The translations under genes and the position numbers were made by a program. From assembly GCA_048938445.1 (NCBI GenBank), contig JBHLME010000015.1:1-49634 (forward strand): 49,634 nucleotides of DNA, written 5' to 3'. The stretch is from Promethearchaeota archaeon. Its GTDB lineage: Archaea; Asgardarchaeota; Lokiarchaeia; Sigyniarchaeales; SOKP01. The number at the start of each line of letters is the position of its first letter. Positions within the stretch are counted from its first letter, which is position 1. Under the pieces are notes generated by a model, which saw only the letters and a list, made by a program, of their open reading frames with translations, did not search any database and was not told the origin of the DNA. Positions 8,517-34,089 of this stretch are shown here, one piece after another.

Positions 8517-8535
8517 ATAAAGAGGAAATAAAAAA

Positions 8536-9732: not shown

Positions 9733-9733
9733 A

Positions 9734-11254: not shown

Positions 11255-11276
11255 ATTAAATTTAGGTGGAAAAAAA

Positions 11277-13128: not shown

Positions 13129-15213
13129 ATGAAAACGAATTCACAATATGAGATGTTAGAAAAACGGGTTGAATTAAAAGAAGACTTGGATATTAAAAAA
13201 GTAATGAAAAAAAAAGATTCAAGAAAATGGAGTAAATATTTACCCAAGAGAAAATTTAATAGCCTTGGTGAGATGGCGTTTGTTACCATTAGAAGATTTG
13301 GTGATAGAACAGCAATAAGGTGGTTTGACGATGATGAAATCAAAGAATTAACCTATAAAGAACTTGGATTCCATATAATTAATACTTTTCATGGATTAAG
13401 AGCACTTGGCATATCCCAACACGATCATGTCGCAATTTGCTCTAAAACTTCACCCTATTGGACATTAACAGATATAGCCCTTCAATCATTAGGTGCAGTA
13501 TCCATTGCAATATACCCCTCTTTAAAACCTAAAGAAATGAAATATATTTTAAATGATTCAGAAAGCAAGTGTATACTCGTAGATACTCAAGATAATTTAG
13601 AAAAGATACTTTCAATTGAAAGTGAAGTACCTACTTTACAATACATTATAGTTTCTGAACTCTTTGATGAAAAGTTGAAAAAAGACAATGTTCTTGGATT
13701 TAAGGAATTCATTGGGAAAGGTCTCGATTATGCGGTTGACAATCCCGCATCAATTGATGATGCAATTTCTAAAGTTAGAGAAGAAGATTTAGCAAGCCTA
13801 ATTTATACTTCTGGAACTACTGGAATTCCAAAAGGAGTCATGTTAACGCATAGAAACTTTCTTTCTGACGCACTCCTGTCATCTTCTGTCGTCTTGACTA
13901 GTATTAAAGGAGAAAAACCATGGGAACAAGATCTTTGCTGTGTCATGCCATATTCTCACTCATTTGGAAGATGTGTTGATGAATATTGTCCTATCTTAAT
14001 GGGCGCATCAATGAATATGGTTCATGAATATGATCCAGACTTAATTAGAAGAGCTTTTGAAGAATTCAAACCAACCTTCATGTGCGGGATACCTTATCTT
14101 TATCAAAAGATATATAATATTGTTCTGGACGAAGTTGCCCAATATCCAAAAATGATTCAAAATATCGTTGCTGGTGTCATTGAAAATGGACGAACTTTTT
14201 TTAAGTTATGGGAAGCAGGAGAAAAAATACCTTTTAAAGTCAAACTGAGACAGAACTTTACCGCTAAATTGGTAGGGAGAATAGTCAATAAGAAAATTGG
14301 TGGACGGTGGAAGGGAATGATAAGTGGTTCTGCTAAGTTGTCAAGGGAAGTAATGTATTTCTTCAATACTTTGGGATTTCTAATGGCTGAGGGATATGGT
14401 TTAACAGAATCAAGTCCAGTTACACATTTACTACGTACGGAGTTTAATTCAGACTTTAGACCAAATTTTAATAAAAAAATAAATCCCTATGATAAAATCG
14501 GCACGATTGGCCCACCCATAGAAATACCAAACAGTCCATACGAAAATATTGAACAAAAACTCGATCCAGACACGGGAGAGTTGTTGATTAAGGGTCCAAT
14601 GATCATGAAAGGTTATTGGAAGAAACCAGAATTGACCTCTCTTGCGATTGATGATGATGGTTGGTTACATACTGGAGATATCGCAGAAATAGACGAAGAT
14701 GGTTATGTCACAATTAAAGGTCGAGCAAAAGTCGTTATTAAATTAATGACGGGTAAAATGATAAGTCCTGCTGCCGTGGAAAATTTAATTACACCTGCTT
14801 CTAGAATGATCGGACAGTTTATATTAGCAGGTGATGATTCTCGAAAATATTTAACAGCGATAATCGTTCCTTATCAAGAACCTCTTAAAAAATATGCGGA
14901 TGAGCACGGGATAAAATATACCACTTGGAGAGAGATTATTACTAATGAAGAAATTCAGAAAGTATTAGAAAATGAAATCTCATCATTCTTGAAGGATACA
15001 TCAAATTATGCCCGGCCTAAGAAATTCTTAATATCATCAAAGGTAATCGATGAGTCTCAATACGTCACTCCAACATATAAATTTAAAAGAAAAACACTCA
15101 TGGAAGATTTACAAAAAGATATCGATAAACTTTACGATTCTGATAAAACTTTTGTTATTATTGAGGATAGAATGACAGATTTTTATGATCAAGGAATGAT
15201 TATCTCTGGTTAG
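13129..15213 (+). CDS. Long-chain acyl-CoA synthetase (AMP-binding)
   Basis: YTSGTTGIPKG, EGYGLTE, GWLHTGD, GRAK, TPTYKFKR. Confidence 0.92.
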   Translation: MKTNSQYEMLEKRVELKEDLDIKKVMKKKDSRKWSKYLPKRKFNSLGEMAFVTIRRFGDRTAIRWFDDDEIKELTYKELGFHIINTFHGLRALGISQHDHVAICSKTSPYWTLTDIALQSLGAVSIAIYPSLKPKEMKYILNDSESKCILVDTQDNLEKILSIESEVPTLQYIIVSELFDEKLKKDNVLGFKEFIGKGLDYAVDNPASIDDAISKVREEDLASLIYTSGTTGIPKGVMLTHRNFLSDALLSSSVVLTSIKGEKPWEQDLCCVMPYSHSFGRCVDEYCPILMGASMNMVHEYDPDLIRRAFEEFKPTFMCGIPYLYQKIYNIVLDEVAQYPKMIQNIVAGVIENGRTFFKLWEAGEKIPFKVKLRQNFTAKLVGRIVNKKIGGRWKGMISGSAKLSREVMYFFNTLGFLMAEGYGLTESSPVTHLLRTEFNSDFRPNFNKKINPYDKIGTIGPPIEIPNSPYENIEQKLDPDTGELLIKGPMIMKGYWKKPELTSLAIDDDGWLHTGDIAEIDEDGYVTIKGRAKVVIKLMTGKMISPAAVENLITPASRMIGQFILAGDDSRKYLTAIIVPYQEPLKKYADEHGIKYTTWREIITNEEIQKVLENEISSFLKDTSNYARPKKFLISSKVIDESQYVTPTYKFKRKTLMEDLQKDIDKLYDSDKTFVIIEDRMTDFYDQGMIISG

Positions 15214-15300: not shown

Positions 15301-15828
15301 TCATAGCAATTTAGCATTTTTCATCATTATTTTTGTAATTGCTTCCATAATTACTTGAACATTTTCACCCGTTTTTGAAGAGCATTCTATATAGCCTAGA
15401 AGCTTCTTTTTTTTTGCGAGTTCTATAACCTCATCTGACTCCACTTCACGTTTATCTTCAAGGTCTATTTTTGTACCTACCATTATGATTGGTGCCATGA
15501 ATTCTTCCCTGTTATTAGGATCCTTAAAAAAATCTAACCATTCATTAATTTTATCTAAACTTTTAGTATCTGTAGTATCGAACATAAAAAGCCCTCCTTT
15601 TGCATCCTGTACAAAGCTAGGAAAGAGGATTTTATAGTGTTCTTCACCCGCAAAATCCCATATTTGGAGTCCGACAGTTTTTCCTTCGACTTCAAGAGAT
15701 GTGGTGTGTAAATCAGTACCTATTGTCATTCTCTCCTCTTCATTGAAGACATTGGTTAAATACTTCCTACAGTAACTAGTTTTTCCTACACCGCTATCCC
15801 CAAATATACACAGTTTAAATTTTGTCAT
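15301..15828 (-). CDS. Rab-like small GTPase
   Basis: G1 GDSGVGKTS, G2 TIG, G3 LQIWDFAGEE, G4 TKID, G5 ECSSKTG; 175 aa; no C-terminal Cys motif. Confidence 0.93.
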   Translation of the reverse strand: MTKFKLCIFGDSGVGKTSYCRKYLTNVFNEEERMTIGTDLHTTSLEVEGKTVGLQIWDFAGEEHYKILFPSFVQDAKGGLFMFDTTDTKSLDKINEWLDFFKDPNNREEFMAPIIMVGTKIDLEDKREVESDEVIELAKKKKLLGYIECSSKTGENVQVIMEAITKIMMKNAKLL

Positions 15829-19568: not shown

Positions 19569-22500
19569 TTACCAGTAAACTTCCTTCAAATTAGAATGGT
19601 AATCATTGAGAGATTTAACGACTAATTTTTTCTCCCTTACATTTTCAATTGCATCTACAATTGTTTTAGCAAGTTGTAAATTAATTATTACTGGAATATT
19701 ATAATCAACTGCCATTCTCCTGATTTTATATTCATCCTCAATTATTTTTCTAAATTTATCTTCCACGGTTGTGGGGAGTGGAATGTTGATTACCATATCA
19801 ATACGTCCTTCTTGCAAGCATTCCATGATATTAGGCTCCATTCCCTTTTCATGAACTTTATAAAGTCTCACGACATCGATATCATTATTTCTCAATGCTT
19901 TAGCTGTATCTTCTGTAGCAAAAATTGTAAATCCCAGATCTCTTAATTTTTTAGCAATTGGGATCACTTCTTGCTTTAATTCATCCCCTCCAACAGAAAT
20001 CAAAACATTACCCCCTTCCACAGGGATATATTGCTCAGCAGCTTCAAGAGCCTTTAGTAAAGCATCTTGAAAATCATCCCCAATAACTGCGACTTCTCCT
20101 GTACTATTCATTTCAACTCCAAGTATCACATCTGCTTTATCCAAGCGCATAAATGAAAACATTGGTGCTTTAACTCCAACGAATTCACCGTAAGGTAAAT
20201 TCAGTAATCTTTCTGGAATTTTTCCACCCATGATTACTTCCGCTGCTAATTTCATGAGGTTGATACCTCGAGTTTTTGATACGTATGGCATGCTCCGGCT
20301 AGAACGTAAGTTGCATTCAATAACAAATACTTCATCATTTTTCACAAGGTATTGAATGTTAAAAGGTCCCATTATTTTGAGAGATAAAGCAATTTTTTTT
20401 GTATAATCATCTATATCCTTCTTGACTTTTTCGGAGATTGTTTGAGGCGGCAGAGCCATCGTCGCATCACCTGAATGTACCCCCGCATTTTCGATATGTT
20501 CCACGATTGCACCTATTAGAACCTTCTCACCATCACAAATACCATCACATTCAACTTCAAGGGAATTAGTGAAAAATTTTGTAATAACGACAGGATATTC
20601 TCGCGAAACAGCTGCGGCCAAATCGAGCGTGTCATTGAGTGTTTTTTCATCATAACATACTCTCATTGCAGCACCACTTAAGACATAAGAAGGTCTTACA
20701 AGAACGGGATATTTAACCTTATTTGCGAACTCTAAGGCTTCTTCTTTAGTCGTTAGCATTGCCCATTCAGGTTGCTTAATTCCCAGTTGATCTAACAAAC
20801 CACTAAATTTACTTCTATCTTCTGCCATATCAACTCGAGAACCATGTGTCCCTAAAATATTTATGTTTGTCTTACGGTAAAAATCAGAATATTTTGCAAA
20901 CTTTGCGGCGAGATTTTGTGCAATCTGTCCACCAGCATTCAATACAATACCATAAGGTCTCTCTAATTCACATATGTCTAAAACTCTCTCTCCTGATAAT
21001 TCTTCAAAATATAAGCGGTCAGAAACATCATAATCTGTTGATACTGTTTCAGGATTATAATTTATGATTATTGCTTTATCAACATCTAACTTCTGTAAAC
21101 CCCAGAGACAATTTACAGAGCCCCAATCAAATTCAACGCTTGCTCCAATACGATACGTGCCTGAACCTAGTACAATTACTTTTTTCTCATGTTCTTCTTG
21201 ACTGTATTTAATATCATGTTTATTACCCCAATATGTTAGATATAAATAATGTCGTTCTGGAACACATTGACCTGCTAAAGTGTCAATTTGTTTAACATAT
21301 GGCACTATATCATATCGTTTTCTTAAACGTCTTATTGTTGGTGTATCAATACCTATAATTTTTGCTATTTGTCCGTCTGAAAAACCATATCTCTTTGCTC
21401 TAGTTAGTAGATGCTGTTTTTCTTCATCACTAGAGCCTAAGAAGTCTAACTGTTCAAGTTGGTTTTCAATATCAATAATATTTTTTAACTTATAAAGAAA
21501 CCACTTGTCAACTCGAGAGCGTTCATAAATTTCATCAATTGAAATCCCTCGTTTAATCGCCTCCCCGATTCTTAAAAACCTTAAATCAGTTGGGTTTCTC
21601 AATTCGTATTTTAATTCGTTAATATCTTCTATAGGTTTAATTTCATTTGCAACAAATCCTTTTAAACCAATATCTAGCATTCGAAGTGCTTTTTGGCAAA
21701 TTTCCTCAAAATTTCTACCAATACTCATGCACTCACCCACTCCTTTCATTTGAGGACCGATATGTCTATCTACTTTCTCAAATTTTGTCAAATCCCATCT
21801 TGGATATTTTAACACCATGTAATCAGTAGCGGGTTCAAAATTAGCTGTTGTTTTTAAAGTTATTTGGTTTAATAACTCAGGTAAAGTGTAACCTATTGCC
21901 ACCTTAGCTGCAATATATGCTAATGGATAACCTGTTGCTTTTGAAGCTAAAGCAGAAGATCTAGACAATCTAGCATTAATTTCGATGGCTCTAAATTTTT
22001 TTGAAAATGGATCAAGGGCCCATTGTATGTTACATTCTCCAACCACACCCACACCCCTAGTTGCCCGAATTGATGCTGAGCGTAGTATTTGTAATTCTTC
22101 ATCTGTTAAAGTTTGAGCAGGAGCTATAACTATACTGTCCCCCGTATGAATACCACAAGGATCTACATTTTCCATACTGCAATTAATGAAACAGTTATCT
22201 TCAGCATCTCTTAGGATTTCAAATTCAATTTCTTTCCAACCCCAAACACTTTCTTCAATTAAAATTTGATGGATTCTTGATTGTGCTAAACCTCTTTTTG
22301 CCATCCTTTCAAACTGTTCCCAATTGTGTATAATCCCTGATCCTTTACCTCCTAAGACATAAGCGACCCTTAACATGAGGGGAAATTCAAGTTCTTTAGC
22401 ATATTCTTTAGCTTCTTTATATGAATTGACTGCTTTACTTAGACATACAGGACAATCTGCTTCAGCCATTGCTTTGACAAAAAGGTCTCGATCTTCAGTA

Positions 22501-22874
22501 GCTTCTATTGCTTTTATAGGTGTTCCCAAAACCTTTATATTATATTTATCCAGGATTCCCGCTTCATGTAATTCAACAGCAACATTCAATCCCGTTTGAC
22601 CACCAAAAGAAGTACAAATCCCATCAGGTCGTTCCTTTTTTATAATTTCTTCAACATATTTAACATTTATAGGTTGTAAATATACTTTATCAGCCATCTG
22701 TGGATCTGTTTGAATTGTCGCAATGTTTGGATTTACTAGTATAGTTTCAATCCCTTCTTCATTTAAAGCCTTAAGTACTTGACTTCCACTATAGTCAAAT
22801 TCTCCTGCCTGACCAATTCTAACTGCACCAGAACCTAATATTAAAACTTTTTTTAAAGAATTATCTAAAGGCAT
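19569..22874 (-). CDS. carB: Carbamoyl-phosphate synthase large subunit, copy 2
   Basis: IGQAGEFDYSGSQ, NPNIATIQTD, HTGDS, EINARLSRSSALASKATGYP, NPETVSTDYD, RPSYVLSG, HSGDA, C-terminal MGS-like domain. Confidence 0.96.
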   Translation of the reverse strand: MPLDNSLKKVLILGSGAVRIGQAGEFDYSGSQVLKALNEEGIETILVNPNIATIQTDPQMADKVYLQPINVKYVEEIIKKERPDGICTSFGGQTGLNVAVELHEAGILDKYNIKVLGTPIKAIEATEDRDLFVKAMAEADCPVCLSKAVNSYKEAKEYAKELEFPLMLRVAYVLGGKGSGIIHNWEQFERMAKRGLAQSRIHQILIEESVWGWKEIEFEILRDAEDNCFINCSMENVDPCGIHTGDSIVIAPAQTLTDEELQILRSASIRATRGVGVVGECNIQWALDPFSKKFRAIEINARLSRSSALASKATGYPLAYIAAKVAIGYTLPELLNQITLKTTANFEPATDYMVLKYPRWDLTKFEKVDRHIGPQMKGVGECMSIGRNFEEICQKALRMLDIGLKGFVANEIKPIEDINELKYELRNPTDLRFLRIGEAIKRGISIDEIYERSRVDKWFLYKLKNIIDIENQLEQLDFLGSSDEEKQHLLTRAKRYGFSDGQIAKIIGIDTPTIRRLRKRYDIVPYVKQIDTLAGQCVPERHYLYLTYWGNKHDIKYSQEEHEKKVIVLGSGTYRIGASVEFDWGSVNCLWGLQKLDVDKAIIINYNPETVSTDYDVSDRLYFEELSGERVLDICELERPYGIVLNAGGQIAQNLAAKFAKYSDFYRKTNINILGTHGSRVDMAEDRSKFSGLLDQLGIKQPEWAMLTTKEEALEFANKVKYPVLVRPSYVLSGAAMRVCYDEKTLNDTLDLAAAVSREYPVVITKFFTNSLEVECDGICDGEKVLIGAIVEHIENAGVHSGDATMALPPQTISEKVKKDIDDYTKKIALSLKIMGPFNIQYLVKNDEVFVIECNLRSSRSMPYVSKTRGINLMKLAAEVIMGGKIPERLLNLPYGEFVGVKAPMFSFMRLDKADVILGVEMNSTGEVAVIGDDFQDALLKALEAAEQYIPVEGGNVLISVGGDELKQEVIPIAKKLRDLGFTIFATEDTAKALRNNDIDVVRLYKVHEKGMEPNIMECLQEGRIDMVINIPLPTTVEDKFRKIIEDEYKIRRMAVDYNIPVIINLQLAKTIVDAIENVREKKLVVKSLNDYHSNLKEVYW

Positions 22875-22878
22875 ACTT

Positions 22879-24012
22879 CTACAACTCCAGTAATTTAATA
22901 AATTTGTTAAAAATCAGTTCCCTCATATCTAGTGCTCCTGGTGATCCTTCAGGATTGAATGCCACCGAAAATATTGGTTTGTTCTCATGTATCAATCCTT
23001 CATTTGTATTATCGTCCTTATCATAGAAATATTGTTTAAAACCATTCATTTCACAATCCTTTAAAAAATACGCATGATTTTGAAAAGTAATGAAACAATG
23101 GTCAGTTGCGCTTTCTACAGTAGTTCGCCCTCCACGATGTTCAGCAGTTAACTTGTATGAAGTCATTCCTGCTGCAAGTCCTAATATAACATGCCCTAAA
23201 CCGATTCCTATTGTTGGAATAGAATTATCAATTAACTTTTTAACAGTATCTATTGTTTTTTTATATATTAGGGGATTTCCAGGTCCATTAGTAATTAAAA
23301 TACCATTTGGATTTAGCCCTATTATTTTTTCATAACTATAATCATACGGAGCAATAATTACATCTAAATTTTTTTGTAATAATGTTCTAAGCAAACCATT
23401 TTTTACTCCCAAATCTAATATGAGGATCTTCCCTTTAGGATTTGATAAAGAGAATTTTTTAATTTCTTTAACTGAAACCATCTCAACGAGGTTATTTTGA
23501 CTTGGATCTACAATCTTTTTAACTTCATTCTTCAATTCTTCAATATTTGGGTTTTCACCCTCTTCATAGACTTCAAGCAAACCCAATTGTGAGCCTTTTT
23601 CCACGAATGTTTGAGTCATAGCTCTCGTATCGACCCATTGGATACCAGGAATGTTTTGTTCTAGAAGCCATTCTTCTAATGTCCTTATTGACTCGTAATG
23701 GTTTGGATTTTGACAATATTCATTAACAATTATACCTTTTAATTGAATAGAATCAGACTCAAAATGTCGAAGAATTCCATTTTCATCTATTTCTCTTGCG
23801 GGTACACCATAATTACCTATAGAAGGATAAGTAAATAGGACGATGTTGTCTTTAAATGTGCTATCTGTTAAAATCTCGATATAACCTGATCCTGGAATAG
23901 AGGTAAATGTTATTTCTCCAGATACTTTATTTATTGCTCCAAATCCTATCCCTTCATAATAAGTTCCGTCTTGGAACATTAAAATAGCAGATCTTTCCGT
24001 TTTATAAATCAT
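22879..24012 (-). CDS. carA: Carbamoyl-phosphate synthase small-subunit homolog lacking the catalytic Cys and His
   Basis: Full length (377 aa) with GNYG, DTRA, DLGVK, NGPGNP and QNH, but GIGLGHV replaces GICLGxQ and FNPE replaces FHPE. Confidence 0.9.
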   Translation of the reverse strand: MIYKTERSAILMFQDGTYYEGIGFGAINKVSGEITFTSIPGSGYIEILTDSTFKDNIVLFTYPSIGNYGVPAREIDENGILRHFESDSIQLKGIIVNEYCQNPNHYESIRTLEEWLLEQNIPGIQWVDTRAMTQTFVEKGSQLGLLEVYEEGENPNIEELKNEVKKIVDPSQNNLVEMVSVKEIKKFSLSNPKGKILILDLGVKNGLLRTLLQKNLDVIIAPYDYSYEKIIGLNPNGILITNGPGNPLIYKKTIDTVKKLIDNSIPTIGIGLGHVILGLAAGMTSYKLTAEHRGGRTTVESATDHCFITFQNHAYFLKDCEMNGFKQYFYDKDDNTNEGLIHENKPIFSVAFNPEGSPGALDMRELIFNKFIKLLEL

Positions 24013-24142
24013 TTTTGCTCAAGAATCACGAAATTTTTAAAATATAATCTAATATAACTAATTAAATTATCTTAATGAATATAATAACCAGTCAATAATG
24101 AACTAATAAATTAATAAATAAGTTAGAATAATTAACGGATAA

Positions 24143-27100
24143 TTACCAATATACTTCTTTTAAGGTATCATGATATTCATTCAGGGATTTAATAGTAAGA
24201 GGTCTTTTTCTTACCTTTTCTATTGCCTCTACAACTGCTCGTGCTAATTCAAGATTAATTATTACAGGAAGATTGAAATCAACTGCCATTCTCCTTATCA
24301 AGTACTCATCTTCTAATATGATTCTAAATTTATCTTCCACTGTAGTAGGAAATGGAATATTTATTACCAAATCGATTGCACCATTTTGTAAGCATCCCAT
24401 AATGTTTGGTTCTTGACCATATTCGTGAACTTTATATAATTTTACTGCAAAAATACCATTTTCTTTCAAAACTTTCGCTGTATCCTCAGTTGCAAATATT
24501 GTGAAACCCATTTTTTTTAATTTTTTTGCTAACGGAACGACTTGCATTTTTAATTCTTCACCACCTACTGAAATCAATACATTACCACCATTAATAGGAA
24601 TATTCATTTCAGTAGCTTCTAATGCATTTATTAAAGCGGATGGAAAATCATTCCCAAGAACGCCTATTTCGCCTGTGGAGCTCATTTCAACTGAAAGAAC
24701 GGGATCTGCCTTGTCAAGCCTCATAAATGAAAACATTGGTGCCTTGATTCCAACATAATCACCATAAGGTAAATTCATGAGTCGTTCTGGAATTTTTTTA
24801 CCCATCATTACTTCTGCGGCTAATCTCATCAAATTTACACCTCGAGTCTTGGAAACATATGGCATACTGCGGCTAGATCTTAGATTACACTCAATAACGG
24901 ATACCTCTTCATTTTTCACGAGATATTGAACATTAAATGGACCAATGATTTTTAATGCAAGGGCAATCTTTTTTGTATATTCTTCAATTTTTTTTATAAT
25001 TTTTTCTGAAATTGTTTGTGGAGGGATTGCCATTGTTGCATCTCCACTGTGGATACCCGCATTTTCAATATGTTCAACAATTGCCCCAATAAATACATTT
25101 TCTCCATCACATACTCCATCACATTCTATTTCCCGAGCATTAGTAAAAAACTTAGTAATGACTACAGGGTATTCATTAGAAACTGCTGCTGCTAAATCTA
25201 AAGTATCTTTTAACGTATGTTCATCATAGGATACTCTCATTGCAGCTCCACTCAAGACATAAGAAGGTCTAATCAAAACAGGATATCCCACGGAACGTGC
25301 AAATTCCACGGCTTTTTCTTTATTGACAAGTGCAGCCCATTCAGGTTGCTTTATTCCAAGTTGATCCAATAAACTACTAAATTTTGAACGATCCTCTGCC
25401 ATATCAATTCGTGTCCCATGAGTTCCTAATATGTTTAAACCTGTTTTACCAAAAAATTCTGAATATTTTGAAAATTTTGTGGCCAAATTATTTGCAATCT
25501 GCCCACCAGCAGATACTATGACACCATATGCTTTTTCAAGTTCACAAATGTCTAACACTCGTTCTCCACTTAATTCTTCAAAATATAATTTATCTGAAAT
25601 ATCGTAATCCGTGGAAACTGTTTCTGGATTATAATTAATAATAATAGCTTGATCCACTCCCAAATTCTTTAAACCCCAAAGACAGTTAACAGATCCCCAA
25701 TCAAATTCTACTGATGCGCCAATACGATATGTTCCTGAACCTAATACAATGACTTTTTTCAAATTTTTTCGAGTTTCTTGTTCAAAATCAATATCATGCT
25801 CTGATGCAGAATAAGTAAGATACAGATAATTGGTAATAGCAGGCCACTCCGCAGCCAAAGTATCTATACGTTTTATGTAAGGTTGAATTTGGAAATTTTT
25901 TCGTAATTTTCGAACGATAATCGAATCAATTCCCATTATCTTGGCTATTTGACCATCCGAAAAGCCGAATCGTTTTGCTCTTTCAAACCAATAATGTTTT
26001 TCCTCATTACTTGATTCTAATAAATCAAGTTCTTTTAGATTTTTTTCAATATCATTTATATTTTTTAGTTTATATAAAAACCACTTGTCGACTCGAGATA
26101 ATTCATAAATCTCATCTATAGATAAACCTCTTTTTATAGCTTCACCTAATCTAAATACCCTTAAATCGGTAGGATTTCGTAATTCGTATTTTAACTCATT
26201 AAGATCCTCAATAGGTTCCAAATCATTTGCAATAAAACCTTTCATACCAATATCAAGCATTCTTATGGCTTTTTGAAGCACTTCCTCAAATGTTCTTCCA
26301 ATAGCCATAACTTCACCTACAGATTTCATTTGACTTCCAATATGACGATCGACTTTTTGAAATTTGGTTAAATCCCATCGAGGAATCTTCAAAACTAAAT
26401 AATCTAAAGCGGGTTCGAAACAAGCAGTTGTTATTTCAGTGATTTTATTTTTTAATTCTGGGAGAGTATATCCTATCGCAAGCTTTGCTGCTATATAGGC
26501 TAAAGGATACCCTGTAGCTTTCGATGCTAAAGCAGATGATCTTGAAAGTCGTGCGTTTACTTCAATGACTCGAAATTCTTTTGATGTTGGATGGAGAGCG
26601 TATTGTATGTTACATTCACCAATTATCCCTAAATTTCTAATGACTCGAATTGAAGCAGATCGTAACATTTGATATTCTTCATTCGTGAGAGTTTGGCTTG
26701 GAGCTACTACTATGCTTTCCCCTGTATGGATACCAACAGGATCAAAATTTTCCATATTGCAGTTAATGAAACAATTATTAGCGGAGTCTCGAACGACTTC
26801 ATATTCGATTTCTTTCCAACCCCATACACTCTCCTCAATTAAAATTTGATTGATTCTTGACTGTGCTAATCCCTTTTTTGCCATTTTTTCAAAGTCTTTC
26901 ATATTATATATTATACCAGACCCTCTACCACCAAGCGTGTAAGCAACTCTAAGCATTAAAGGGAATCCGAAATTTTTAGCGACTTTAATTGCCTCTGAAT
27001 AGGAAGTAACTGCTTGGCTCCTACATACTTTCGCATCGGATTCATACATTGCCTTGACAAACAAATCTCGATCTTCTGTTGCCTCTATAGCCTCTATTGG

Positions 27101-27460
27101 CGTACCTAGAACCCGTACATTATATTTTTCCAGGATTCCTTCTTCTTTTAACTCAACACCTACATTTAAAGCGGTCTGTCCTCCAAAGGCAAGCAAAATT
27201 CCATCAGGTTTCTCTTTTTTGATAACTTCTTCAACATATTTCACATTAATGGGCAATAAATAAACTCTATCAGATAATTGCGGATCTGTTTGTATTGTCG
27301 CAATATTGGGATTAATCAGAATGGTTTCAATGCCTTCTTCCTTGAGAGCTTTCAGGACTTGGCTTCCAGAATAATCAAATTCGCCAGCTTGGCCAATTCG
27401 AATTCCACCAGATCCTAAAACTAAAGCTTTTTTAATGGATTTATCGAGAGGCATAATCAT
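24143..27460 (-). CDS. carB: Carbamoyl-phosphate synthase large subunit, copy 1
   Basis: Same CPS motifs, with HTGES and IDTLAAEWPA; start overlaps the carA stop (ATGA) or is ATG 27454. Confidence 0.96.
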   Translation of the reverse strand: MIMPLDKSIKKALVLGSGGIRIGQAGEFDYSGSQVLKALKEEGIETILINPNIATIQTDPQLSDRVYLLPINVKYVEEVIKKEKPDGILLAFGGQTALNVGVELKEEGILEKYNVRVLGTPIEAIEATEDRDLFVKAMYESDAKVCRSQAVTSYSEAIKVAKNFGFPLMLRVAYTLGGRGSGIIYNMKDFEKMAKKGLAQSRINQILIEESVWGWKEIEYEVVRDSANNCFINCNMENFDPVGIHTGESIVVAPSQTLTNEEYQMLRSASIRVIRNLGIIGECNIQYALHPTSKEFRVIEVNARLSRSSALASKATGYPLAYIAAKLAIGYTLPELKNKITEITTACFEPALDYLVLKIPRWDLTKFQKVDRHIGSQMKSVGEVMAIGRTFEEVLQKAIRMLDIGMKGFIANDLEPIEDLNELKYELRNPTDLRVFRLGEAIKRGLSIDEIYELSRVDKWFLYKLKNINDIEKNLKELDLLESSNEEKHYWFERAKRFGFSDGQIAKIMGIDSIIVRKLRKNFQIQPYIKRIDTLAAEWPAITNYLYLTYSASEHDIDFEQETRKNLKKVIVLGSGTYRIGASVEFDWGSVNCLWGLKNLGVDQAIIINYNPETVSTDYDISDKLYFEELSGERVLDICELEKAYGVIVSAGGQIANNLATKFSKYSEFFGKTGLNILGTHGTRIDMAEDRSKFSSLLDQLGIKQPEWAALVNKEKAVEFARSVGYPVLIRPSYVLSGAAMRVSYDEHTLKDTLDLAAAVSNEYPVVITKFFTNAREIECDGVCDGENVFIGAIVEHIENAGIHSGDATMAIPPQTISEKIIKKIEEYTKKIALALKIIGPFNVQYLVKNEEVSVIECNLRSSRSMPYVSKTRGVNLMRLAAEVMMGKKIPERLMNLPYGDYVGIKAPMFSFMRLDKADPVLSVEMSSTGEIGVLGNDFPSALINALEATEMNIPINGGNVLISVGGEELKMQVVPLAKKLKKMGFTIFATEDTAKVLKENGIFAVKLYKVHEYGQEPNIMGCLQNGAIDLVINIPFPTTVEDKFRIILEDEYLIRRMAVDFNLPVIINLELARAVVEAIEKVRKRPLTIKSLNEYHDTLKEVYW

Positions 27461-28593
27461 AACTCCATTAATTCCATAAATTTATCAAATAAATATAAAG
27501 AATCTAAAGGTCCTGGAGACGCTTCTGGGTGAAATTGGACAGCAAAAATAGGTTTGCTCTCATGAAAGAGCCCTTCATTTGATTGATCATCAACATTTTT
27601 TAGAAATTCCTTAAATCCTTCTTTTTCAAAGTCTTTGATACAGAACCCATGATTTTGTGAGGTAATAAAGCATTTTTGATTTTCAGGATTAATCACGGTC
27701 TTATTGCCTCCTCTATGACCGTATTTTAACTTATATGAGGCCCCTCCCGCTGCCAAACCAAGGATTTGGTTCCCTAAACATATCCCAAATGTGGGAATAT
27801 CATTTTTAATTAATTTTTTACACACTTCTATGGCACTTTTATAAATTGCAGGATCTCCTGGACCATTTGAAATGAATACGCCATTAGGTTTAAACTCCAT
27901 TATTTGTTCATAAGTATAATTATATGGTACTACAATTATTTCAAGACCCCTTCGAGCAAAATTCCTTAATATATTTAGTTTAACACCCAAATCCAAGATG
28001 ACTACTTTCCCAATAGGATTCTTGGGGCCATATTCTTTAACTTCTTTTGTACAAACCTCACTTGAAAGTTCTCGGTTATTGGGATCTTCAGCATCCCTTA
28101 CTAGTTTTTTTAACTTTTCAATATCTGGTTTCACACCATGCTCATATACTGCTAAAAGACCAATTTGAACACCTTCTTCTCTTAAAATCTTAGTAACTGC
28201 TCGAGTATCAATCCACTCAATCCCTGGGACGTTTTGTTCTCTCAGGAATTCATCTAATTTTTTCACGCTTTGGTAATGGCTTGGATGCTTGCAGCATTCA
28301 TTTACAACAAAACCAGTTACCTTGACTGAATCAGATTCGAAATACTTGGTGATACCATATTCATCCTTTTCCCAGGCAGGAACACCATAATTACCTACGA
28401 GAGGATGAGTCATTGTAACGATCTGGCCTTGATATGAGGGATCTGTTAATGTTTCATTGTATCCCGCACCCGTCATTGTATTAAAAACAAGTTCTCCCGT
28501 GACAATTTTTGTTGCTCCAAAACCAATCCCCTGAAAATATCGCCCGTCTTGAAGCATTAAAATCGCGGGTCTTTCATTCTTATAAATAACCAT
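27457..28593 (-). CDS. carA: Carbamoyl-phosphate synthase small subunit (glutaminase motifs intact)
   Basis: SNGPGDP, FGICLGNQ, GHRGGN, SQNHG, QFHPEASPGP: intact Cys-His-Glu triad. Confidence 0.96.
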   Translation of the reverse strand: MVIYKNERPAILMLQDGRYFQGIGFGATKIVTGELVFNTMTGAGYNETLTDPSYQGQIVTMTHPLVGNYGVPAWEKDEYGITKYFESDSVKVTGFVVNECCKHPSHYQSVKKLDEFLREQNVPGIEWIDTRAVTKILREEGVQIGLLAVYEHGVKPDIEKLKKLVRDAEDPNNRELSSEVCTKEVKEYGPKNPIGKVVILDLGVKLNILRNFARRGLEIIVVPYNYTYEQIMEFKPNGVFISNGPGDPAIYKSAIEVCKKLIKNDIPTFGICLGNQILGLAAGGASYKLKYGHRGGNKTVINPENQKCFITSQNHGFCIKDFEKEGFKEFLKNVDDQSNEGLFHESKPIFAVQFHPEASPGPLDSLYLFDKFMELMEL

Positions 28594-29844: not shown

Positions 29845-30726
29845 TTATTTGATTTTTTGAATGAGACTAGTTTTTAACTCTTCAGCTAAAGTCTCTAACC
29901 TGCTTGCCGTTGAGGATATTTCTTCCATTGAAGCAACCTGTTCTTCGGTTCCAGACGTTATTTCCTCCATCGCTTGAGAAACTTTTTCACTTGCTGACGC
30001 AATTTCAGTGAGATTTTTGACCATCGTTTCGATTAATTCTGTCGTCTGATCCACTGAAAGTTTTGATTCTTCTGCCAGTTTTTGCACCTTTTCAGCCACT
30101 ACGGCAAATCCTCGACCGTGTTCTCCTGCCCGACCCGCTTCGATGCTGGCGTTTAATGCAAGTAAGTTTGTTTGTTCTGAAATGCTCGTAATGAATTTTG
30201 CGATGTTTTTGATGTCAGTAGTCATATTATTTATATGTATTAAGGAATTTGATTGATCCTTAGCTCGTTTTGAAACTTCTACGGTTGTTTGGGAAATTTG
30301 TTCTGATGCTGCGTTAACTTCACTAGCACTCGCAGATAATTCAGTTGCCATGTTCGCAACGCTCAATGCCACGCTTTCTGAGTTGTTAATGATATTTTTT
30401 AATCGATCACGTTGATTACTCAATGAATTTTCTTGTTTTCTTATCACTTTTAATATGTAGTATACTGAATATATCACTAGTGAAAAATTTACGGGTAAGC
30501 TTGCTAAAGTGAATATCAAAACCAAATTAAGAACAGCTACTAAAATTACTCCTGCTAAAATAAAAATACTGATTCCAACAAAATATAATATTAGAACTTT
30601 AAATTCAGTTGATTTCATATTGATTTTGAAACGCCATTTAAATCCTGTAGCGATTAACAAGAATCCAAAAATCACTATTGGTAAGTAAAATTCGATTGGT
30701 AATGATTCCAATGTTTGCATTATCAA
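29845..30726 (-). CDS. Methyl-accepting chemotaxis-like protein 1 (3 TM, short signalling domain)
   Basis: [30 protein letters not shown] hairpin tip; methylation-type motif [10 protein letters not shown]. Confidence 0.9.
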
Positions 30727-30931
30727 TTATATTCCCCTAATTTTATAGTTTATATTCATTTTTTAAAAACTAGAATATATTTGATTCTATCAAGAAAAAA
30801 GAACTATAAAAAATTTGAGATTTTAAAATATTTTCCAAAATGATCGAAATTAAAGAAATTAGCAATACAAACCAAAAAGAAAAAATAAAGAAAAAATAAT
30901 TCTTCAATAAGTCTAAAAAACCAATGAATCA

Positions 30932-31813
30932 TTATTTAATTTTCTGAACAAGGTTTGTCTTTAACTCTTCAGCTAAAGTTTCTAATCTACTTGCCGTTGA
31001 GGAAATCTCCTCCATTGAAGCAACCTGTTCTTCGGTTCCAGACGTTATTTCCTCCATCGCATGAGAAACTTTTTCACTTGCTGACGCAATTTCAGTGAGA
31101 TTTTTGACTATCGTTTCGATTAATCCTGTCGTTTGATCAACTGAAAGTTTTGATTCTTCTGCCAGTTTTTGCACCTTTTCAGCCACTACGGCAAATCCTC
31201 GACCATGTTCGCCCGCCCGACCCGCTTCGATGCTGGCATTTAATGCAAGTAAGTTTGTTTGTTCTGAAATGCTCGTGATGAATTTTGCGATGTTTTTGAT
31301 GTCAGTAGTCATTTTATTGATATGTTCTAAAGCACTAGCTTGATCTTTCGCCCGTTTACTCACCTCGATTGTGGTTTGCGAGATTTGTTCTGAGGAGGCA
31401 TTTACTTCGCTTGCACTTGCGGATAATTCGGTTGCCATGTTCGCAACACTTAATGCAACGCTTTCTGAATTGTTGATGATTTTTTCTAAACGTCCATATT
31501 GACCTTTCAATGTATTCTCTTGCCTTCTAATTACTTTCAAAATGTAAAGGAGTGAATAAACGACGAAAATAAAACTGACGGGTGATGTTATAAAAGTAAA
31601 AAAGATATCAGAATTTAGAAGACCAACCAAGATCATTGCTAAAGATGATAAACTACCGACTCCAACAAGGTAATATAATAAAATCTTAAATTCAACCGAT
31701 TTTATTTTAATTTTATAACGATATATAATTACTAATGCAACCAGTGTGAATCCAACGATTATCAGCATGATGAACATTTCAACTGGCATAGACCCTAATA
31801 ATTGCATGAACAT
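30932..31813 (-). CDS. Methyl-accepting chemotaxis-like protein 2
   Basis: Same signalling domain; 293 aa. Confidence 0.9.
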
Positions 31814-31875
31814 TTATTATCACTAAAATTTCCTTTTTATTCTTCTTGATATAGGTTCTAATTTCTAAAATTATG

Positions 31876-31969
31876 AAAGAACCAATATTTAAACTTTAAC
31901 TTTATAGAATATTTAAATTGATTATTACGAGATAAAAATTAACTTTGTGAAAAGAATGAATTCTTCTTG
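31876..31969 (-). promoter_or_regulatory. Conserved promoter block of MCP2 (TATA TTTAAATA 31893-31886 plus upstream imperfect palindrome 31951-31969)
   Basis: Aligns with the equivalent blocks upstream of MCP3 and MCP4. Confidence 0.6.
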
Positions 31970-32072
31970 AAAATTTTTCACGACTTATCCAATTAGACAT
32001 ATTTAATAATCATTTATATCTAAAATTCAATTGAGGGAATGTAAAAAAATGATAAAAAAAATTTTAAAAAAG

Positions 32073-32954
32073 TCATTTTATTTTTTGAATGAGGCTTGTT
32101 TTTAACTCTTCAGCCATTGTTTCTAACCTGCTTGCCGTTGAGGATATTTCCTCCATTGAGGCCACCTGTTCTTCGGTTCCTGAAGTAATTTCTTCCATCG
32201 CATGAGAGACTTTTTCACTTGCTGACGCTATATCCGTGAGATTTTTGACTATCGTTTCGATTAATTCTGTTGTTTGATCTACTGAAAGTTTTGATTCTTC
32301 AGCTAATTTTTGTACTTTTTCAGCTACCACGGCAAAACCTCGACCGTGCTCCCCTGCCCTTCCTGCTTCTATGCTCGCGTTTAAGGCGAGTAAATTAGTT
32401 TGTTCTGAAATACTCGTGATGAACTTTGCGATATTTTTGATGTCAGTGGTCATTTTATTGATATATATTAAAGCATTAGCTTGATCTTTCGCCCGCTTAC
32501 TCACCTCAACTGTCGTTTGTGAGATTTGTTCTGAGGATGCATTTACCTCACTGGCACTCGCGGACAGTTCGGTTGCCATGTTCGCAACGCTTAATGCCAC
32601 GCTTTCTGAATTGTTGATGATTTTTTCTAAATGCGTTCTTTGGCCTTTTAAAGAATTTTCTTGCCTTCTAATTACTTTTAAAATGTAAATCAGCGTATAT
32701 ATCAGGAATACTAAACATAAGGGAAGAAATATAAAAATGAATAGATAGTCTGCATCAAGAGGTATGAATATAATGATGGCAACGATTAGTATTCCCCCAA
32801 GACCGAGAAGATAAAGTATGACAACTTTAAACTCAGTTGATTTTAGTTGTATTTTATAACGATATTTAATCATTAATGCTAGTAATGGCAATATTGTTAT
32901 TGCTAACACAAGCAGAAGTTGATATGGTGCTGGACCTAAAATTTGCATGAACAT
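32073..32954 (-). CDS. Methyl-accepting chemotaxis-like protein 3
   Basis: Same signalling domain; 293 aa. Confidence 0.9.
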
Positions 32955-33013
32955 TTTTTGTAGTCCTTTTTTTTTAATTCCCTAAAAAGTGAAATTTTAC
33001 TTCTTTTATCATG

Positions 33014-33108
33014 AAAGAACTTGTATTTAAACCTTAAGTTTATGGAATATTTAAATTAAATGCTTATAATAAAATGGTAAAACTGCTAACAAGAAGGGAT
33101 TCTTCTTG
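33014..33108 (-). promoter_or_regulatory. Conserved promoter block of MCP3 (TATA 33031-33024; palindrome CAAGAAG-N5-CTTCTTG 33090-33108)
   Basis: Read directly; TATA-to-palindrome spacing is within 1 nt of that for MCP2. Confidence 0.6.
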
Positions 33109-33207
33109 AAAGTACTTTGAGTATTTTATGAATATAACTTTTTAGTGTCCATTCATTAATTATAAACCATTTGAAGGAAAAAAAATAATCGATAAAATTA
33201 AATTAAG

Positions 33208-34089
33208 TTACTTGATTTTCTGAACGAGGGTTGTTTTTAATTCTTCAGCTAATGTTTCTAACCTGCTTGCCGTTGAGGAGATTTCTTCCATTGAGGCTAC
33301 TTGTTCTTCAGTTCCTGAAGTAATTTCTTCCATTGCATGGGAAACCTTTTCACTTGCTGACGCAATTTCCGTGAGATTTTTGACTATCGTTTCGATTAAT
33401 TCTGTTGTTTGATCTACTGAAAGTTTTGATTCTTCTGCTAATTTTTGGACTTTTTCAGCTACGACGGCAAAACCTCGACCGTGTTCCCCCGCACGACCCG
33501 CCTCTATGCTTGCGTTTAATGCAAGTAAGTTTGTTTGCTCCGAAATGCTCGTTATGAATTTTGCGATGTTTTTAATATCAGTAGTCATTTTATTGATATG
33601 TTCTAAAGCATTAGCTTGATCTTTCGCTCGTTTACTGACCTCGACTGTGGTTTGCGAGATTTGCTCTGAAGAGGCATTTACTTCACTGGCACTAGCTGAT
33701 AATTCAGTTGCCATATTCGCAACACTTAAAGCTACGCTTTCAGAATTGTCAATTATACTTTTTAGGCGTACTTGCTGGCCTTTTAAAGAATGCTCTTGAT
33801 TTCTTATAACTTTTACAATAAAAATTATTGAATAAACCAAGAAAATAACCACCGGTGGAATTAATATAAAGATATAAAAAAATTCAGAATTGAGGGTTCC
33901 CACTACCACGACAGCGACGATTGCTATTGCCGTGATACCAGTAGTATAAAATACGAGGGCTTTAAATTCAGTCGATTTTAGATTAATTTTATATAGATAT
34001 TTTATCACAAGTCCAATCAATGACAGGACAAATATTACTAAAAAAATAAGAAATTCGACAGAAGCATAGCCTATTATTTGCATCAACAT
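33208..34089 (-). CDS. Methyl-accepting chemotaxis-like protein 4
   Basis: Same signalling domain; 293 aa. Confidence 0.9.

What the first reader, a model, noticed from the sequence alone, without database searches (positions are those of the whole stretch)
22879..24012. Intact but glutaminase-dead CarA in a duplicated carAB: an archaeal parallel to ammonia-dependent CPS I
Seen: two carA-carB operons in tandem. CarA copy 1 has GICLGNQ, GHRGGN and FHPE. Copy 2 is almost the same length (377 vs 378 aa, no frameshift) but has GIGLGHV (Cys to Gly, GGT at 23202-23200; Gln to Val), EHRGGR and FNPE (His to Asn at 22956-22954). Established: class I glutamine amidotransferases need the Cys-His-Glu triad, and mitochondrial CPS I keeps a glutaminase-like domain without the Cys and uses free ammonia. 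Inference: copy 2 encodes an ammonia-using CPS with a structural pseudo-enzyme subunit, giving a glutamine/ammonia isoenzyme pair reminiscent of CPS II/CPS I, by convergence or shared ancestry.
Basis: partly seen in the sequence, partly recalled or inferred. Interest (0 to 1): 0.82.

Follow-up and report, generated by a model that had tools for sequence, protein, structure and literature searches.

The report
Glutaminase-dead CarA with its own CarB
An Asgard archaeon carries a second, well-conserved carbamoyl-phosphate synthetase whose small subunit has lost the residues needed to split glutamine, so it most likely runs on free ammonia, as the mammalian urea-cycle enzyme does, but it arose independently.

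Summary
The minus strand carries carA1-carB1-carA2-carB2. CarA2 is intact at 377 aa. It has Gly (GGT, 23202-23200) where the catalytic Cys269 sits and Asn (AAT, 22956-22954) where His353 sits.

This is not peculiar to the assembly. 103 of 119 database relatives carry the same two changes. So do 18 of 135 species genomes of one Promethearchaeota (Lokiarchaeia-type) family.

All 18 carA2 genes are followed by a distinct carB2. Trees of both subunits show one operon duplication inside that family, so the resemblance to vertebrate CPS I is convergent.

- CarA2 is under purifying selection: dN/dS is 0.11-0.23, against 0.04-0.09 for CarA1.
- CarB2 is as conserved as CarB1 and keeps the checked catalytic and tunnel-gate residues.
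- Four fairly complete genomes have only the A2B2 enzyme.

Best reading (0.72): an ammonia-dependent CPS with a non-catalytic small subunit. No assay or RNA evidence exists.

Cys-less CarA also turns up sporadically elsewhere, including one cultured bacterium. I found no paper describing a prokaryotic case.

The parts
27457..28593 (-). carA1: canonical CPS small subunit with the Cys-His-Glu triad (GICLGNQ, FHPE)
   Evidence: Cys at E. coli position 269 in 59 of 59 CarA1-type sequences.
24143..27460 (-). carB1: canonical CPS large subunit. Its start overlaps the carA1 stop by 4 nt.
24013..24142 (-). 130-nt AT-rich spacer between carB1 and carA2. It leaves room for a promoter of its own, but none was shown.
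   Evidence: sequence only. No promoter test was run.
22879..24012 (-). carA2: intact CPS small-subunit paralog without a glutaminase triad
   Evidence: dN/dS. Predicted to dock on CarB2.
23200..23202 (-). GGT codon: Gly271 of CarA2, at the position of catalytic Cys269 of E. coli CarA
   Evidence: Gly in 121 of 121 CarA2-type sequences.
22954..22956 (-). AAT codon: Asn353 of CarA2, at the position of catalytic His353
   Evidence: Asn in 121 of 121.
19569..22874 (-). carB2: large subunit co-duplicated with carA2. It starts 4 nt after the carA2 stop.
   Evidence: Own clade with 100 support. Checked catalytic and gate residues kept. As conserved as CarB1.

Best explanation
carA2-carB2 encodes a second, fully functional carbamoyl-phosphate synthetase that takes free ammonia instead of glutamine. 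CarA2 is a pseudo-glutaminase. It has lost the nucleophile, the general base and the glutamine-binding side chains, but it is kept as a docked, non-catalytic subunit of CarB2.

CarB2 keeps both ATP-grasp active sites, the tunnel gate and the allosteric domain. It has co-evolved with CarA2 at their interface.

The pair arose by one duplication of a carAB operon inside one Promethearchaeota (Lokiarchaeia-type) family. It therefore works like vertebrate CPS I by convergence.

Inferred rationale: in ammonium-rich, energy-poor sediment, direct use of NH3 saves the ATP that glutamine synthetase spends for each glutamine.

Shown here: loss of the triad, conservation, pairing, the single origin, and the existence of genomes with A2B2 alone.

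Inferred: ammonia as the substrate, the route by which it enters, and the physiological rationale.
For: 1. Active site.
- Cys269->Gly, His353->Asn and deletion of Asn294 occur in 121 of 121 CarA2-type sequences.
- Gln273 is replaced by variable residues.
- Ser47 is kept in only 6 of 121.
- Cys269 and His353 are essential for glutamine hydrolysis in E. coli (PMC6245113, passage).

2. Not decaying.
- dN/dS by NG86 is 0.11-0.23 for CarA2. It is 0.04-0.09 for CarA1 and 0.02-0.16 for CarB2.
- 92 columns are invariant among 13 genomes.

3. Dedicated partner.
- 18 of 18 carA2 genes are followed by a carB2-type gene.
- CarB2 forms one clade with 100 support. Its stem is 0.13, against 0.014 for CarB1.
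- In 12 genomes that carry both, mean pairwise identity is 0.814 for CarB2 and 0.808 for CarB1. Invariant columns number 629 and 629.
- Every ATP-grasp residue I checked is unchanged in 18 of 18 CarB2. So is the gate Cys232/Ala251/Ala314. The gate is named in PMC4655335 and PMC8674909.

4. Co-evolution at the interface.
- 8 of the 22 CarB2-specific substitutions in residues 1-560 lie among the 58 predicted interface residues. About 2.3 would be expected (hypergeometric p = 8e-4).
- Complex model: score 0.92, best of 3 controls 0.00. That mark was reached by 58 of 80 solved complexes and 2 of 110 mismatched pairs. The runs agree in at least 94% of contacts, and the partner's pLDDT is at least 91.
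- I used my own alignments, so these counts hold only roughly. A like complex (E. coli CPS) is solved, so the pass shows likeness rather than binding.

5. Sufficient alone.
- Genomes G182 (99% complete), G177 (97%), G225 (93%) and G228 (92%) each have one PF00988 hit, of CarA2 type, and one PF02787 hit, of CarB2 type.
- Each also has at least two carbamoyltransferase genes that would consume carbamoyl phosphate.

6. Parallel with CPS I.
- The mammalian CPS1 representative in my sample also departs from the canon at positions 47, 244, 269 and 273.
- In human CPS1 the change at the Gly293 loop blocks the old tunnel, and ammonia is proposed to enter by a side path (PMC4655335).
- CarA2 is changed in the same loop (Gly289->Glu, Asn294 deleted, Lys295->Arg).
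Against: - There is no assay and no RNA evidence.
[quoted passage not shown] A2B2 would therefore need a much better affinity for ammonia, which sequence cannot show.
- The four A2B2-only genomes also carry a carbamate kinase above the NCBIfam cut-off, next to a carbamoyltransferase. A2B2 is thus their only CPS but perhaps not their only source of carbamoyl phosphate.
- All four belong to one genus and are MAGs.
- CarA2-specific sites are not enriched at the predicted interface (3 of 17, p = 0.44).
- Several replaced pocket residues are themselves invariant (Arg295, Thr296, Asp331 and Asn353, each 121 of 121). This hints at a function beyond that of a scaffold.
- The closest ortholog pair gives dN/dS of 0.36-0.52, at dS of 0.05-0.07 and from few changes.
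- The residue roles other than Cys269, His353, the gate and Gly293 are recalled, not taken from a call.
Confidence: 0.72

Rival explanations
1. CarA2 is not just a scaffold. Its rebuilt pocket is a new binding site, for ammonia/ammonium or for an effector, that gates or tunes CarB2. The enzyme would still be ammonia-dependent.
For: The replacement residues in and around the old pocket are fixed, not drifting. Arg295, Thr296, Asp331 and Asn353 are each present in 121 of 121. Glu289 is present in 107 of 121 and Phe/Tyr309 in 115 of 121. Positions that only bound glutamine do drift (273, 313, 351).
Against: Fixed residues may simply fill and stabilise an emptied pocket or plug the old tunnel. No ligand can be inferred. 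I could not inspect model coordinates.
Confidence: 0.15
2. A2B2 has another job. It might run backwards (ATP from carbamoyl phosphate during arginine or citrulline fermentation), or it might act on another amine or carboxylate.
For: CPS enzymes catalyse ATP synthesis from carbamoyl phosphate as a partial reaction (recalled). The A2B2-only genomes have catabolic-looking carbamoyltransferase + carbamate kinase pairs.
Against: CarB2 keeps both ATP-grasp sites, the gate and the allosteric-domain residues I checked in 18 of 18. It is as constrained as CarB1 over all four domains. A one-step reverse kinase would not need all this. The same genomes already have a true carbamate kinase. In four genomes A2B2 is the only CPS.
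Confidence: 0.06
3. A2B2 still uses glutamine or another amide through a non-canonical catalytic mechanism.
For: Glu355 (Glu or Asp in 121 of 121), Asn311, His312, Gly241 and the fold are kept.
Against: Gly stands at the nucleophile elbow in 121 of 121. Ser47, Gln273 and His353 are lost as well. Independent Cys-less CarA lineages show the same set of losses: Ser47 is canonical in 10 of 26, against 122 of 122 where Cys is kept.
Confidence: 0.04
4. carA2 is an incipient pseudogene or an assembly artefact.
For: CarA2 evolves about 1.7 times faster than CarA1. Mean pairwise identity is 0.594 against 0.757.
Against: It is intact in 18 of 18 genomes. dN/dS is 0.11-0.23. 121 sequences down to 54% identity keep the same replacements. 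In four genomes it is the only carA.
Confidence: 0.01
5. The pair shares ancestry with eukaryotic CPS I / CPS II.
For: Asgard archaea are the closest known relatives of the eukaryotic host lineage (general knowledge).
Against: CarA2 (100/100) is sister (97/89) to the CarA1 of the same family. Another genus of that family branches outside (100/98). The CarB tree agrees (99 and 100). Mammalian CPS1 representatives sit elsewhere in a broad CarA tree. No CarA2-type hit was seen outside family f1 in the search of 400 genomes of the phylum.
Confidence: 0.01

Closest known systems
Vertebrate mitochondrial CPS I (EC 6.3.4.16)
   Same: - A CPS whose glutaminase-like part has lost the catalytic Cys and which takes free ammonia.
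- The loop at E. coli Gly293 is altered (PMC4655335).
- Positions 47, 244, 269 and 273 depart from the canon in both.
   Different: - CPS I is one fused polypeptide, has Ser rather than Gly, keeps His353, and needs N-acetylglutamate.
- Here there are two separate genes, and both Cys and His are lost.
- No CarB2-specific change lies in the allosteric domain (0 of 26).
- The origin is independent, inside one archaeal family.
E. coli CarAB (EC 6.3.5.5) and its engineered small-subunit mutants
   Same: - The same two-subunit architecture and Pfam domains.
- Recalled: Cys269->Gly/Ser mutants lose glutamine-dependent activity but keep ammonia-dependent activity.
- Recalled: tunnel-blocking Gly359 mutants still use ammonia. 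The titles of these papers stand in the reference lists seen.
   Different: Here the changes are natural, fixed for a long time, and accompanied by about 15 further clade-specific changes in CarA2 and about 26 in CarB2.
Duplicated arginine- and pyrimidine-specific CPS of Bacillus and Lactobacillus (recalled)
   Same: Two complete carAB-type enzymes in one genome.
   Different: Both of those isoenzymes are glutamine-dependent and differ in regulation. Here the small subunit is catalytically dead. The allosteric domain shows no clade-specific change.
Carbamate-kinase-type ammonia-dependent carbamoyl-phosphate synthesis in Pyrococcus/Thermococcales
   Same: Archaeal carbamoyl-phosphate synthesis from free ammonia. 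I saw only a title in the reference list of PMC6245113 and the abstract of PMC13260591 in a search listing.
   Different: An unrelated enzyme family (amino-acid kinase fold), not a CarAB homolog.
CPS III of Alcolapia fish
   Same: Convergent shift of a CPS towards ammonia (PMC7657897, abstract in the listing).
   Different: An animal fused enzyme. I did not read the details.

Membership tests
CarA / CPS small chain (Pfam PF00988 + PF00117) | N-terminal CPSase_sm_chain domain followed by a class I GATase domain | tested here: met
   PF00988 at 121 bits and PF00117 at 109.5 bits, both above their cut-offs.
Glutamine-hydrolysing CPS small subunit (EC 6.3.5.5) / class I glutamine amidotransferase | Catalytic triad Cys269-His353-Glu355 (E. 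coli numbering) | tested here: not met
   Gly at 269 and Asn at 353 in 121 of 121 sequences. Only Glu/Asp355 is kept.
Glutamine-hydrolysing CPS small subunit (EC 6.3.5.5) / class I glutamine amidotransferase | Glutamine-binding residues Ser47 and Gln273 (roles recalled) | tested here: not met
   Ser47 is kept in 6 of 121. Gln273 is kept in 0 of 121, where it is Met, Asn, Val, Ile and others.
CarB / CPS large chain | Two ATP-grasp modules, oligomerisation domain and MGS-like allosteric domain | tested here: met
   PF25596, PF02786 (2 stretches), PF02787 and PF02142 all hit CarB2.
CarB / CPS large chain | Catalytic residues of both ATP sites (positions recalled) and the ammonia-tunnel gate Cys232/Ala251/Ala314 | tested here: met
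   All listed positions are unchanged in 18 of 18 CarB2. The gate residues are named.
CPS I (ammonia-dependent, EC 6.3.4.16) | Inactive glutaminase part lacking the catalytic Cys | tested here: met
CPS I (ammonia-dependent, EC 6.3.4.16) | Small and large parts fused in one polypeptide | tested here: not met
   Separate ORFs with a 4-nt gap.
CPS I (ammonia-dependent, EC 6.3.4.16) | Common descent with metazoan CPS I | tested here: not met
   CarA2 and CarB2 nest inside one archaeal family. CPS1 representatives sit elsewhere.
CPS I (ammonia-dependent, EC 6.3.4.16) | Free ammonia as substrate; obligatory N-acetylglutamate activation | not testable with these tools
   This needs enzyme assays.
Arginine-/pyrimidine-specific CPS isoenzyme pair | Paralogs differ in the allosteric (C-terminal) domain | tested here: not met
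   0 of 26 CarB2-specific substitutions lie in E. coli 933-1073. The nucleotide-site residues I checked are kept in both (positions recalled).

The most novel reading that the evidence does not exclude
A2B2 may be the largest and oldest example of an overlooked, recurrent class of prokaryotic ammonia-dependent CPS that databases label 'glutamine-hydrolysing'.

On this reading the dead pocket is plugged (Phe/Tyr309, Arg295). The tunnel wall at the subunit interface is remodelled: Pro360->Ala in the small subunit, and Tyr261->Leu, Ile18->Val and Leu352->Thr in the large one. Together these would form a dedicated side entry that gives a physiologically useful affinity for NH3.

This would overturn the statement that glutamine is the nitrogen donor of all prokaryotic CPS. 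It would also show the same structural solution as in CPS I, reached independently many times.
Probability: 0.3. Interest if true: 0.8.

Novelty: new variant of a known kind. Interest (0 to 1): 0.62.

Why it matters
[quoted passage not shown] Ammonia-dependent CPS with a dead glutaminase part is taught as a vertebrate invention.

A conserved archaeal enzyme of that kind, sometimes the only CPS in the genome, would have three consequences:
- It gives a natural, heterodimeric model for how CPS I-type enzymes take up ammonia.
- It changes nitrogen and energy budgets in metabolic reconstructions of Asgard archaea. These genes are annotated as glutamine-hydrolysing (names).
- It shows that the route to CPS I is repeatable.

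It does not bear on eukaryote origins, because the duplication is young and lineage-specific.

Tried and rejected
- **RNA evidence.** No RNA holder was listed. Laying contigs of four DNA runs gave only fragments. Runs of the second study covered short pieces at 90-95% likeness, and one run of the possible source's study was identical over 23043-23467. Nothing follows for expression.
- **Papers not held.** Fan et al. 2009 and the Holden/Raushel review are not in the library. The lists of tunnel-lining residues and the perforation mutant are therefore recalled only.
- **Supplements.** I opened no supplementary files. Supplementary Fig. 4 of PMC4655335 may bear on the CPS1 alignment.
- **Naming the taxon.** The search for related loci in genome contigs returned only 2 loci. 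It named the taxon only as 'Promethearchaeota archaeon'.
- **Gene neighbourhood.** The neighbours of an A2B2-only locus (L040) are uninformative: phosphate transport, 3-hydroxyacyl-CoA dehydrogenase, a molybdopterin oxidoreductase. The window's neighbours of the operon are no arg or pyr genes either: an aminotransferase IV, an alpha/beta hydrolase and a DUF3795 protein.
- **Glutamine supply.** The idea that A2B2-only genomes lack glutamine synthetase is rejected. 5 of 5 have PF00120 hits.
- **Bacterial clade.** The idea that Cys-less CarA forms a large bacterial clade around Desulfonispora is rejected. Only 2 of its 119 nearest relatives lack Cys.
- **YN00 dN/dS.** It failed for most pairs ('math domain error'), so I give NG86 values.
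- **Spacer.** I did not test the 130-nt spacer for a promoter.
Full report
**What is there**

The minus strand of the window carries four genes in a row:

| gene | coordinates | length |
|---|---|---|
| carA1 | 28593..27457 | 378 aa |
| carB1 | 27460..24143 | 1105 aa |
| carA2 | 24012..22879 | 377 aa |
| carB2 | 22874..19569 | 1101 aa |

carB1 overlaps carA1 by 4 nt. A 130-nt AT-rich spacer separates carB1 from carA2. carB2 starts 4 nt after carA2 ends.

Both small subunits hit PF00988 and PF00117. Both large subunits hit the full set of CPS large-chain domains.

CarA1 reads GICLGNQ, GHRGGN and FHPE. CarA2 reads GIGLGHV, EHRGGR and FNPE.

The two CarA copies are 53% identical and the two CarB copies 76%. 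The window's genome is 4.63 Mb in 256 contigs, 96.5% complete and 8.2% contaminated. It holds just these two carA genes, on one contig.

**It is a conserved family, not a local accident**

A search with CarA2 returned 119 non-self relatives. 103 of them carry both Cys->Gly and His->Asn, and 16 are canonical. The source names of these hits are Lokiarchaeota, Promethearchaeota, Hodarchaeota and Hermodarchaeota MAGs. All are annotated 'glutamine-hydrolysing'.

Among 400 species genomes of the phylum, 158 have a CarA hit. Searching the 135 genomes of the window's family (f1) with CarA1 separates the hits cleanly:
- CarA1-type hits are 62-80% identical to the query.
- CarA2-type hits are 46-58% identical.
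- 18 genomes carry a full-length CarA2.
- Two further partial hits at 57% identity were not checked for the motif.

I read the motif in all 18. All 42 CarA1-type genes that I fetched have Cys, including 17 from other families of the phylum.

**Pairing and arrangement**

All 18 carA2 genes are directly followed by a carB that is 79-89% identical to the window's CarB2. The same genes are only 72-77% identical to CarB1.

- The tandem order A1-B1-A2-B2 is seen in 10 genomes. In one of them it is cut at a contig end.
- In 4 genomes the two operons lie on different contigs.
- In 4 genomes of one genus (G182 99%, G177 97%, G225 93%, G228 92% complete) there is one small-chain hit and one large-chain hit in the whole assembly, and both are of the A2/B2 type.
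- Their 17.6-20 kb loci around carA2 show no carA1B1.
- These four genomes have at least two carbamoyltransferase genes and glutamine synthetase.
- They also have a carbamate kinase above the curated cut-off, next to one carbamoyltransferase. A2B2 is therefore their only CPS, but perhaps not their only route to carbamoyl phosphate.

**Origin**

CarA tree, careful search, 60 rows by 382 columns:
- CarA2 is one clade (100/100) with a stem of 0.40.
- Its sister (97/89) is the CarA1 clade of the same family (98/97), with a stem of 0.11.
- Another genus of the family branches outside both (100/98).

The CarB tree is a quick search under LG+G4. It has the same shape, with supports of 100, 99 and 100. 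The stems are 0.13 for CarB2 and 0.014 for CarB1.

So one carAB operon was duplicated inside this family, and both subunits of the new copy then changed quickly. Shared ancestry with eukaryotic CPS I is excluded. Mammalian CPS1 representatives sit elsewhere in a broad CarA tree.

**Selection**

NG86 dN/dS:

| protein | dN/dS | note |
|---|---|---|
| CarA2 | 0.11-0.23 | pairs with dS of 0.5-1.9 |
| CarA2, closest pair | 0.36-0.52 | dS 0.05-0.07, few changes |
| CarA1 | 0.04-0.09 | |
| CarB2 | 0.02-0.16 | |
| CarB1 | 0.04 | |

Comparison within the genomes that hold both copies:
- Across 13 genomes, mean pairwise identity is 0.757 for CarA1 and 0.594 for CarA2.
- Both CarA2 domains are relaxed, by 1.9-fold and 1.5-fold.
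- Invariant columns number 180 for CarA1 and 92 for CarA2.
- Across 12 genomes, CarB1 and CarB2 are equally conserved, at 0.808 and 0.814, with 629 invariant columns each.

CarB2 is thus a fully constrained enzyme. CarA2 is a constrained but lightened subunit.

**What changed in CarA2**

In E. coli numbering, comparing 121 CarA2-type with 59 CarA1-type sequences. Some of the 121 may duplicate one another.

| position | change in CarA2 | count |
|---|---|---|
| Cys269 | -> Gly | 121/121 |
| His353 | -> Asn | 121/121 |
| Asn294 | deleted | 121/121 |
| Lys295 | -> Arg | 121/121 |
| Asn331 | -> Asp | 121/121 |
| position 35 | Pro (Ser in E. coli) | 118/121 |
| Arg123 | -> Val | 116/121 |
| Ser/Thr309 | -> Phe/Tyr | 115/121 |
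| Asp244 | -> Asn | 113/121 |
| Gly289 | -> Glu | 107/121 |
| Pro360 | -> Ala | 90/121 |
| Ser47 | kept | 6/121 |
| Gln273 | replaced by assorted residues | 121/121 |

Kept: Glu355 (as Glu or Asp), Gly241, Gly293, Asn311, His312, Pro358 and Gly359.

**What changed in CarB2**

Comparing 18 CarB2 with 38 CarB1-type sequences, 26 clade-specific sites were found:
- 15 in the carboxyphosphate domain, among them Ile18->Val and Tyr261->Leu (18/18).
- 7 in the stretch 534-541.
- 4 in the carbamoyl-phosphate domain.
- 0 in the allosteric domain.

Leu352->Thr (18/18) just missed my threshold. All ATP-site residues I checked and the gate Cys232/Ala251/Ala314 are unchanged.

Sources for residue roles:
- From papers read here (passages): the roles of Cys269 and His353 (PMC6245113); the gate (PMC4655335 and PMC8674909); and the blocking of the old tunnel at the Gly293 position in human CPS1.
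- Recalled from memory only: the roles of Ser47 and Gln273, the tunnel-lining positions 35 and 309 (small subunit) and 18, 261 and 352 (large subunit), and the perforation and Cys269->Gly mutants.

**Does CarA2 still dock?**

I modelled CarB2 residues 1-560 together with CarA2.
- Score 0.92, best of 3 controls 0.00.
- The mark was reached by 58 of 80 solved complexes and 2 of 110 mismatched pairs.
- The runs agree in at least 94% of contacts, and the partner's pLDDT is at least 91.
- My own alignments were used, so these counts hold only roughly.
- The E. coli complex is solved, so this shows likeness, not binding.

The model is more useful as a map:
- 8 of the 22 CarB2-specific sites within residues 1-560 fall on the 58 predicted interface residues (p = 8e-4).
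- Among the listed contacts are CarB2 258-262 against CarA2 359-361. That is where the ammonia tunnel is said to cross between the subunits.
- CarA2-specific sites are not enriched there (3 of 17, p = 0.44).

**Mechanism proposed**

A2B2 makes carbamoyl phosphate from bicarbonate, two ATP and free ammonia. CarA2 cannot hydrolyse glutamine. It remains bound and helps CarB2, by stabilising it or by shaping ammonia entry.

The old pocket and the tunnel start appear refilled (Arg295, Phe/Tyr309). The wall at the interface appears rebuilt (small-subunit 360; large-subunit 18, 258, 261, 352). This may open a side entry like the one proposed for CPS1. These last steps are inference.

The likely benefit is the saving of the ATP that glutamine synthetase spends per glutamine, in ammonium-rich sediment. 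The DNA holders are listed as sediment metagenomes.

The main difficulty is that ammonia use by E. coli CPS needs very high concentrations.

**Wider occurrence, found in passing**

I searched 1.84 billion representatives with a CarA2 profile. Of the best 150 hits, 120 have Cys-His-Glu, 28 do not and 2 are fragments. The profile favours such hits, so this is not a frequency.

Named cases:
- mammalian CPS1, with Ser-His-Glu. This is a positive control for the method.
- the rotifer Rotaria
- a Helarchaeota MAG
- the cultured bacterium Desulfonispora thiosulfatigenes DSM 11270

On a FastTree the losses are scattered. Well-supported branches force at least 14 changes.

Across the 26 Cys-less and 122 Cys-bearing representatives, loss of Cys goes with four other changes. 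The rows are related to one another, so the p-values overstate.

| feature | Cys-less | Cys-bearing |
|---|---|---|
| Ser47 canonical | 10/26 | 122/122 |
| His353 canonical | 8/26 | 121/122 |
| Asp244 canonical | 6/26 | 100/122 |
| Pro360 canonical | 14/26 | 115/122 |

Around Desulfonispora only 2 of 119 neighbours lack Cys. The bacterial cases seen are therefore small and sporadic. The Asgard clade is large, old and has its own CarB.

**Literature**

Five searches found no paper describing a prokaryotic CarA without the triad or a CarAB-type ammonia-dependent CPS in prokaryotes. The library lacks most subscription journals, so this is weak evidence of absence.

**Verdict**

It is a new variant of a known kind, namely a CPS I-like, ammonia-dependent CPS with a pseudo-glutaminase. 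It is well grounded in sequence and awaits enzymology.

Noticed in passing
window 29845-34089 (-): Four tandem paralogous genes of 293 aa each, with a methyl-accepting chemotaxis signalling domain (PF00015). They lie just upstream of the car operon region.
   Followed up: no
window 15301-15828 (-): A small Ras/Roc/Arf-family GTPase of 175 aa, the kind of eukaryote-like signature protein typical of Asgard archaea.
   Followed up: no
window 7188-12071 (+): A CCG/4Fe-4S protein followed by a split archaeal-type glutamate synthase: class II GATase, Glu_synthase and GXGXG subunits. The organism therefore also has glutamine-dependent nitrogen enzymes. A CTP synthase with a class I GATase domain lies at 37503-39197.
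   Followed up: partly
G167, G178, G199, G169 and others (family f1): 28 of 135 genomes of the family gave no CarA hit at E <= 1e-60, including three that are 99% complete. Some members may lack CPS altogether.
   Followed up: no
G182:C14:7034-10370, G228:C3:32155-34829, G177:C198:421-3085, G225:C81:139-5773: In the four A2B2-only genomes a carbamate kinase (TIGR00746, above the cut-off) lies beside a carbamoyltransferase, a catabolic-looking pair. The window's genome has no hit above the cut-off.
   Followed up: partly
P0216, P0131, P0134, P0156, P0157 and about 20 more representatives: CarA homologs without the catalytic Cys occur in scattered lineages. They include Desulfonispora thiosulfatigenes DSM 11270, a Helarchaeota MAG and the rotifer Rotaria socialis. 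They are mostly Gly at 269 and often Asn at 353 and at 244.
   Followed up: partly
genus g11 of family f1: Within one genus, some species have only A1B1 and four have only A2B2. The CarA2 tree places a genome of another genus (G173) among them. This suggests reciprocal loss or transfer within the family.
   Followed up: no
window 13129-15213 (+), 41592-43325 (-), 40221-41504 (-): Two AMP-binding (acyl-CoA-ligase-like) enzymes and an acyl-CoA dehydrogenase flank the region.
   Followed up: no
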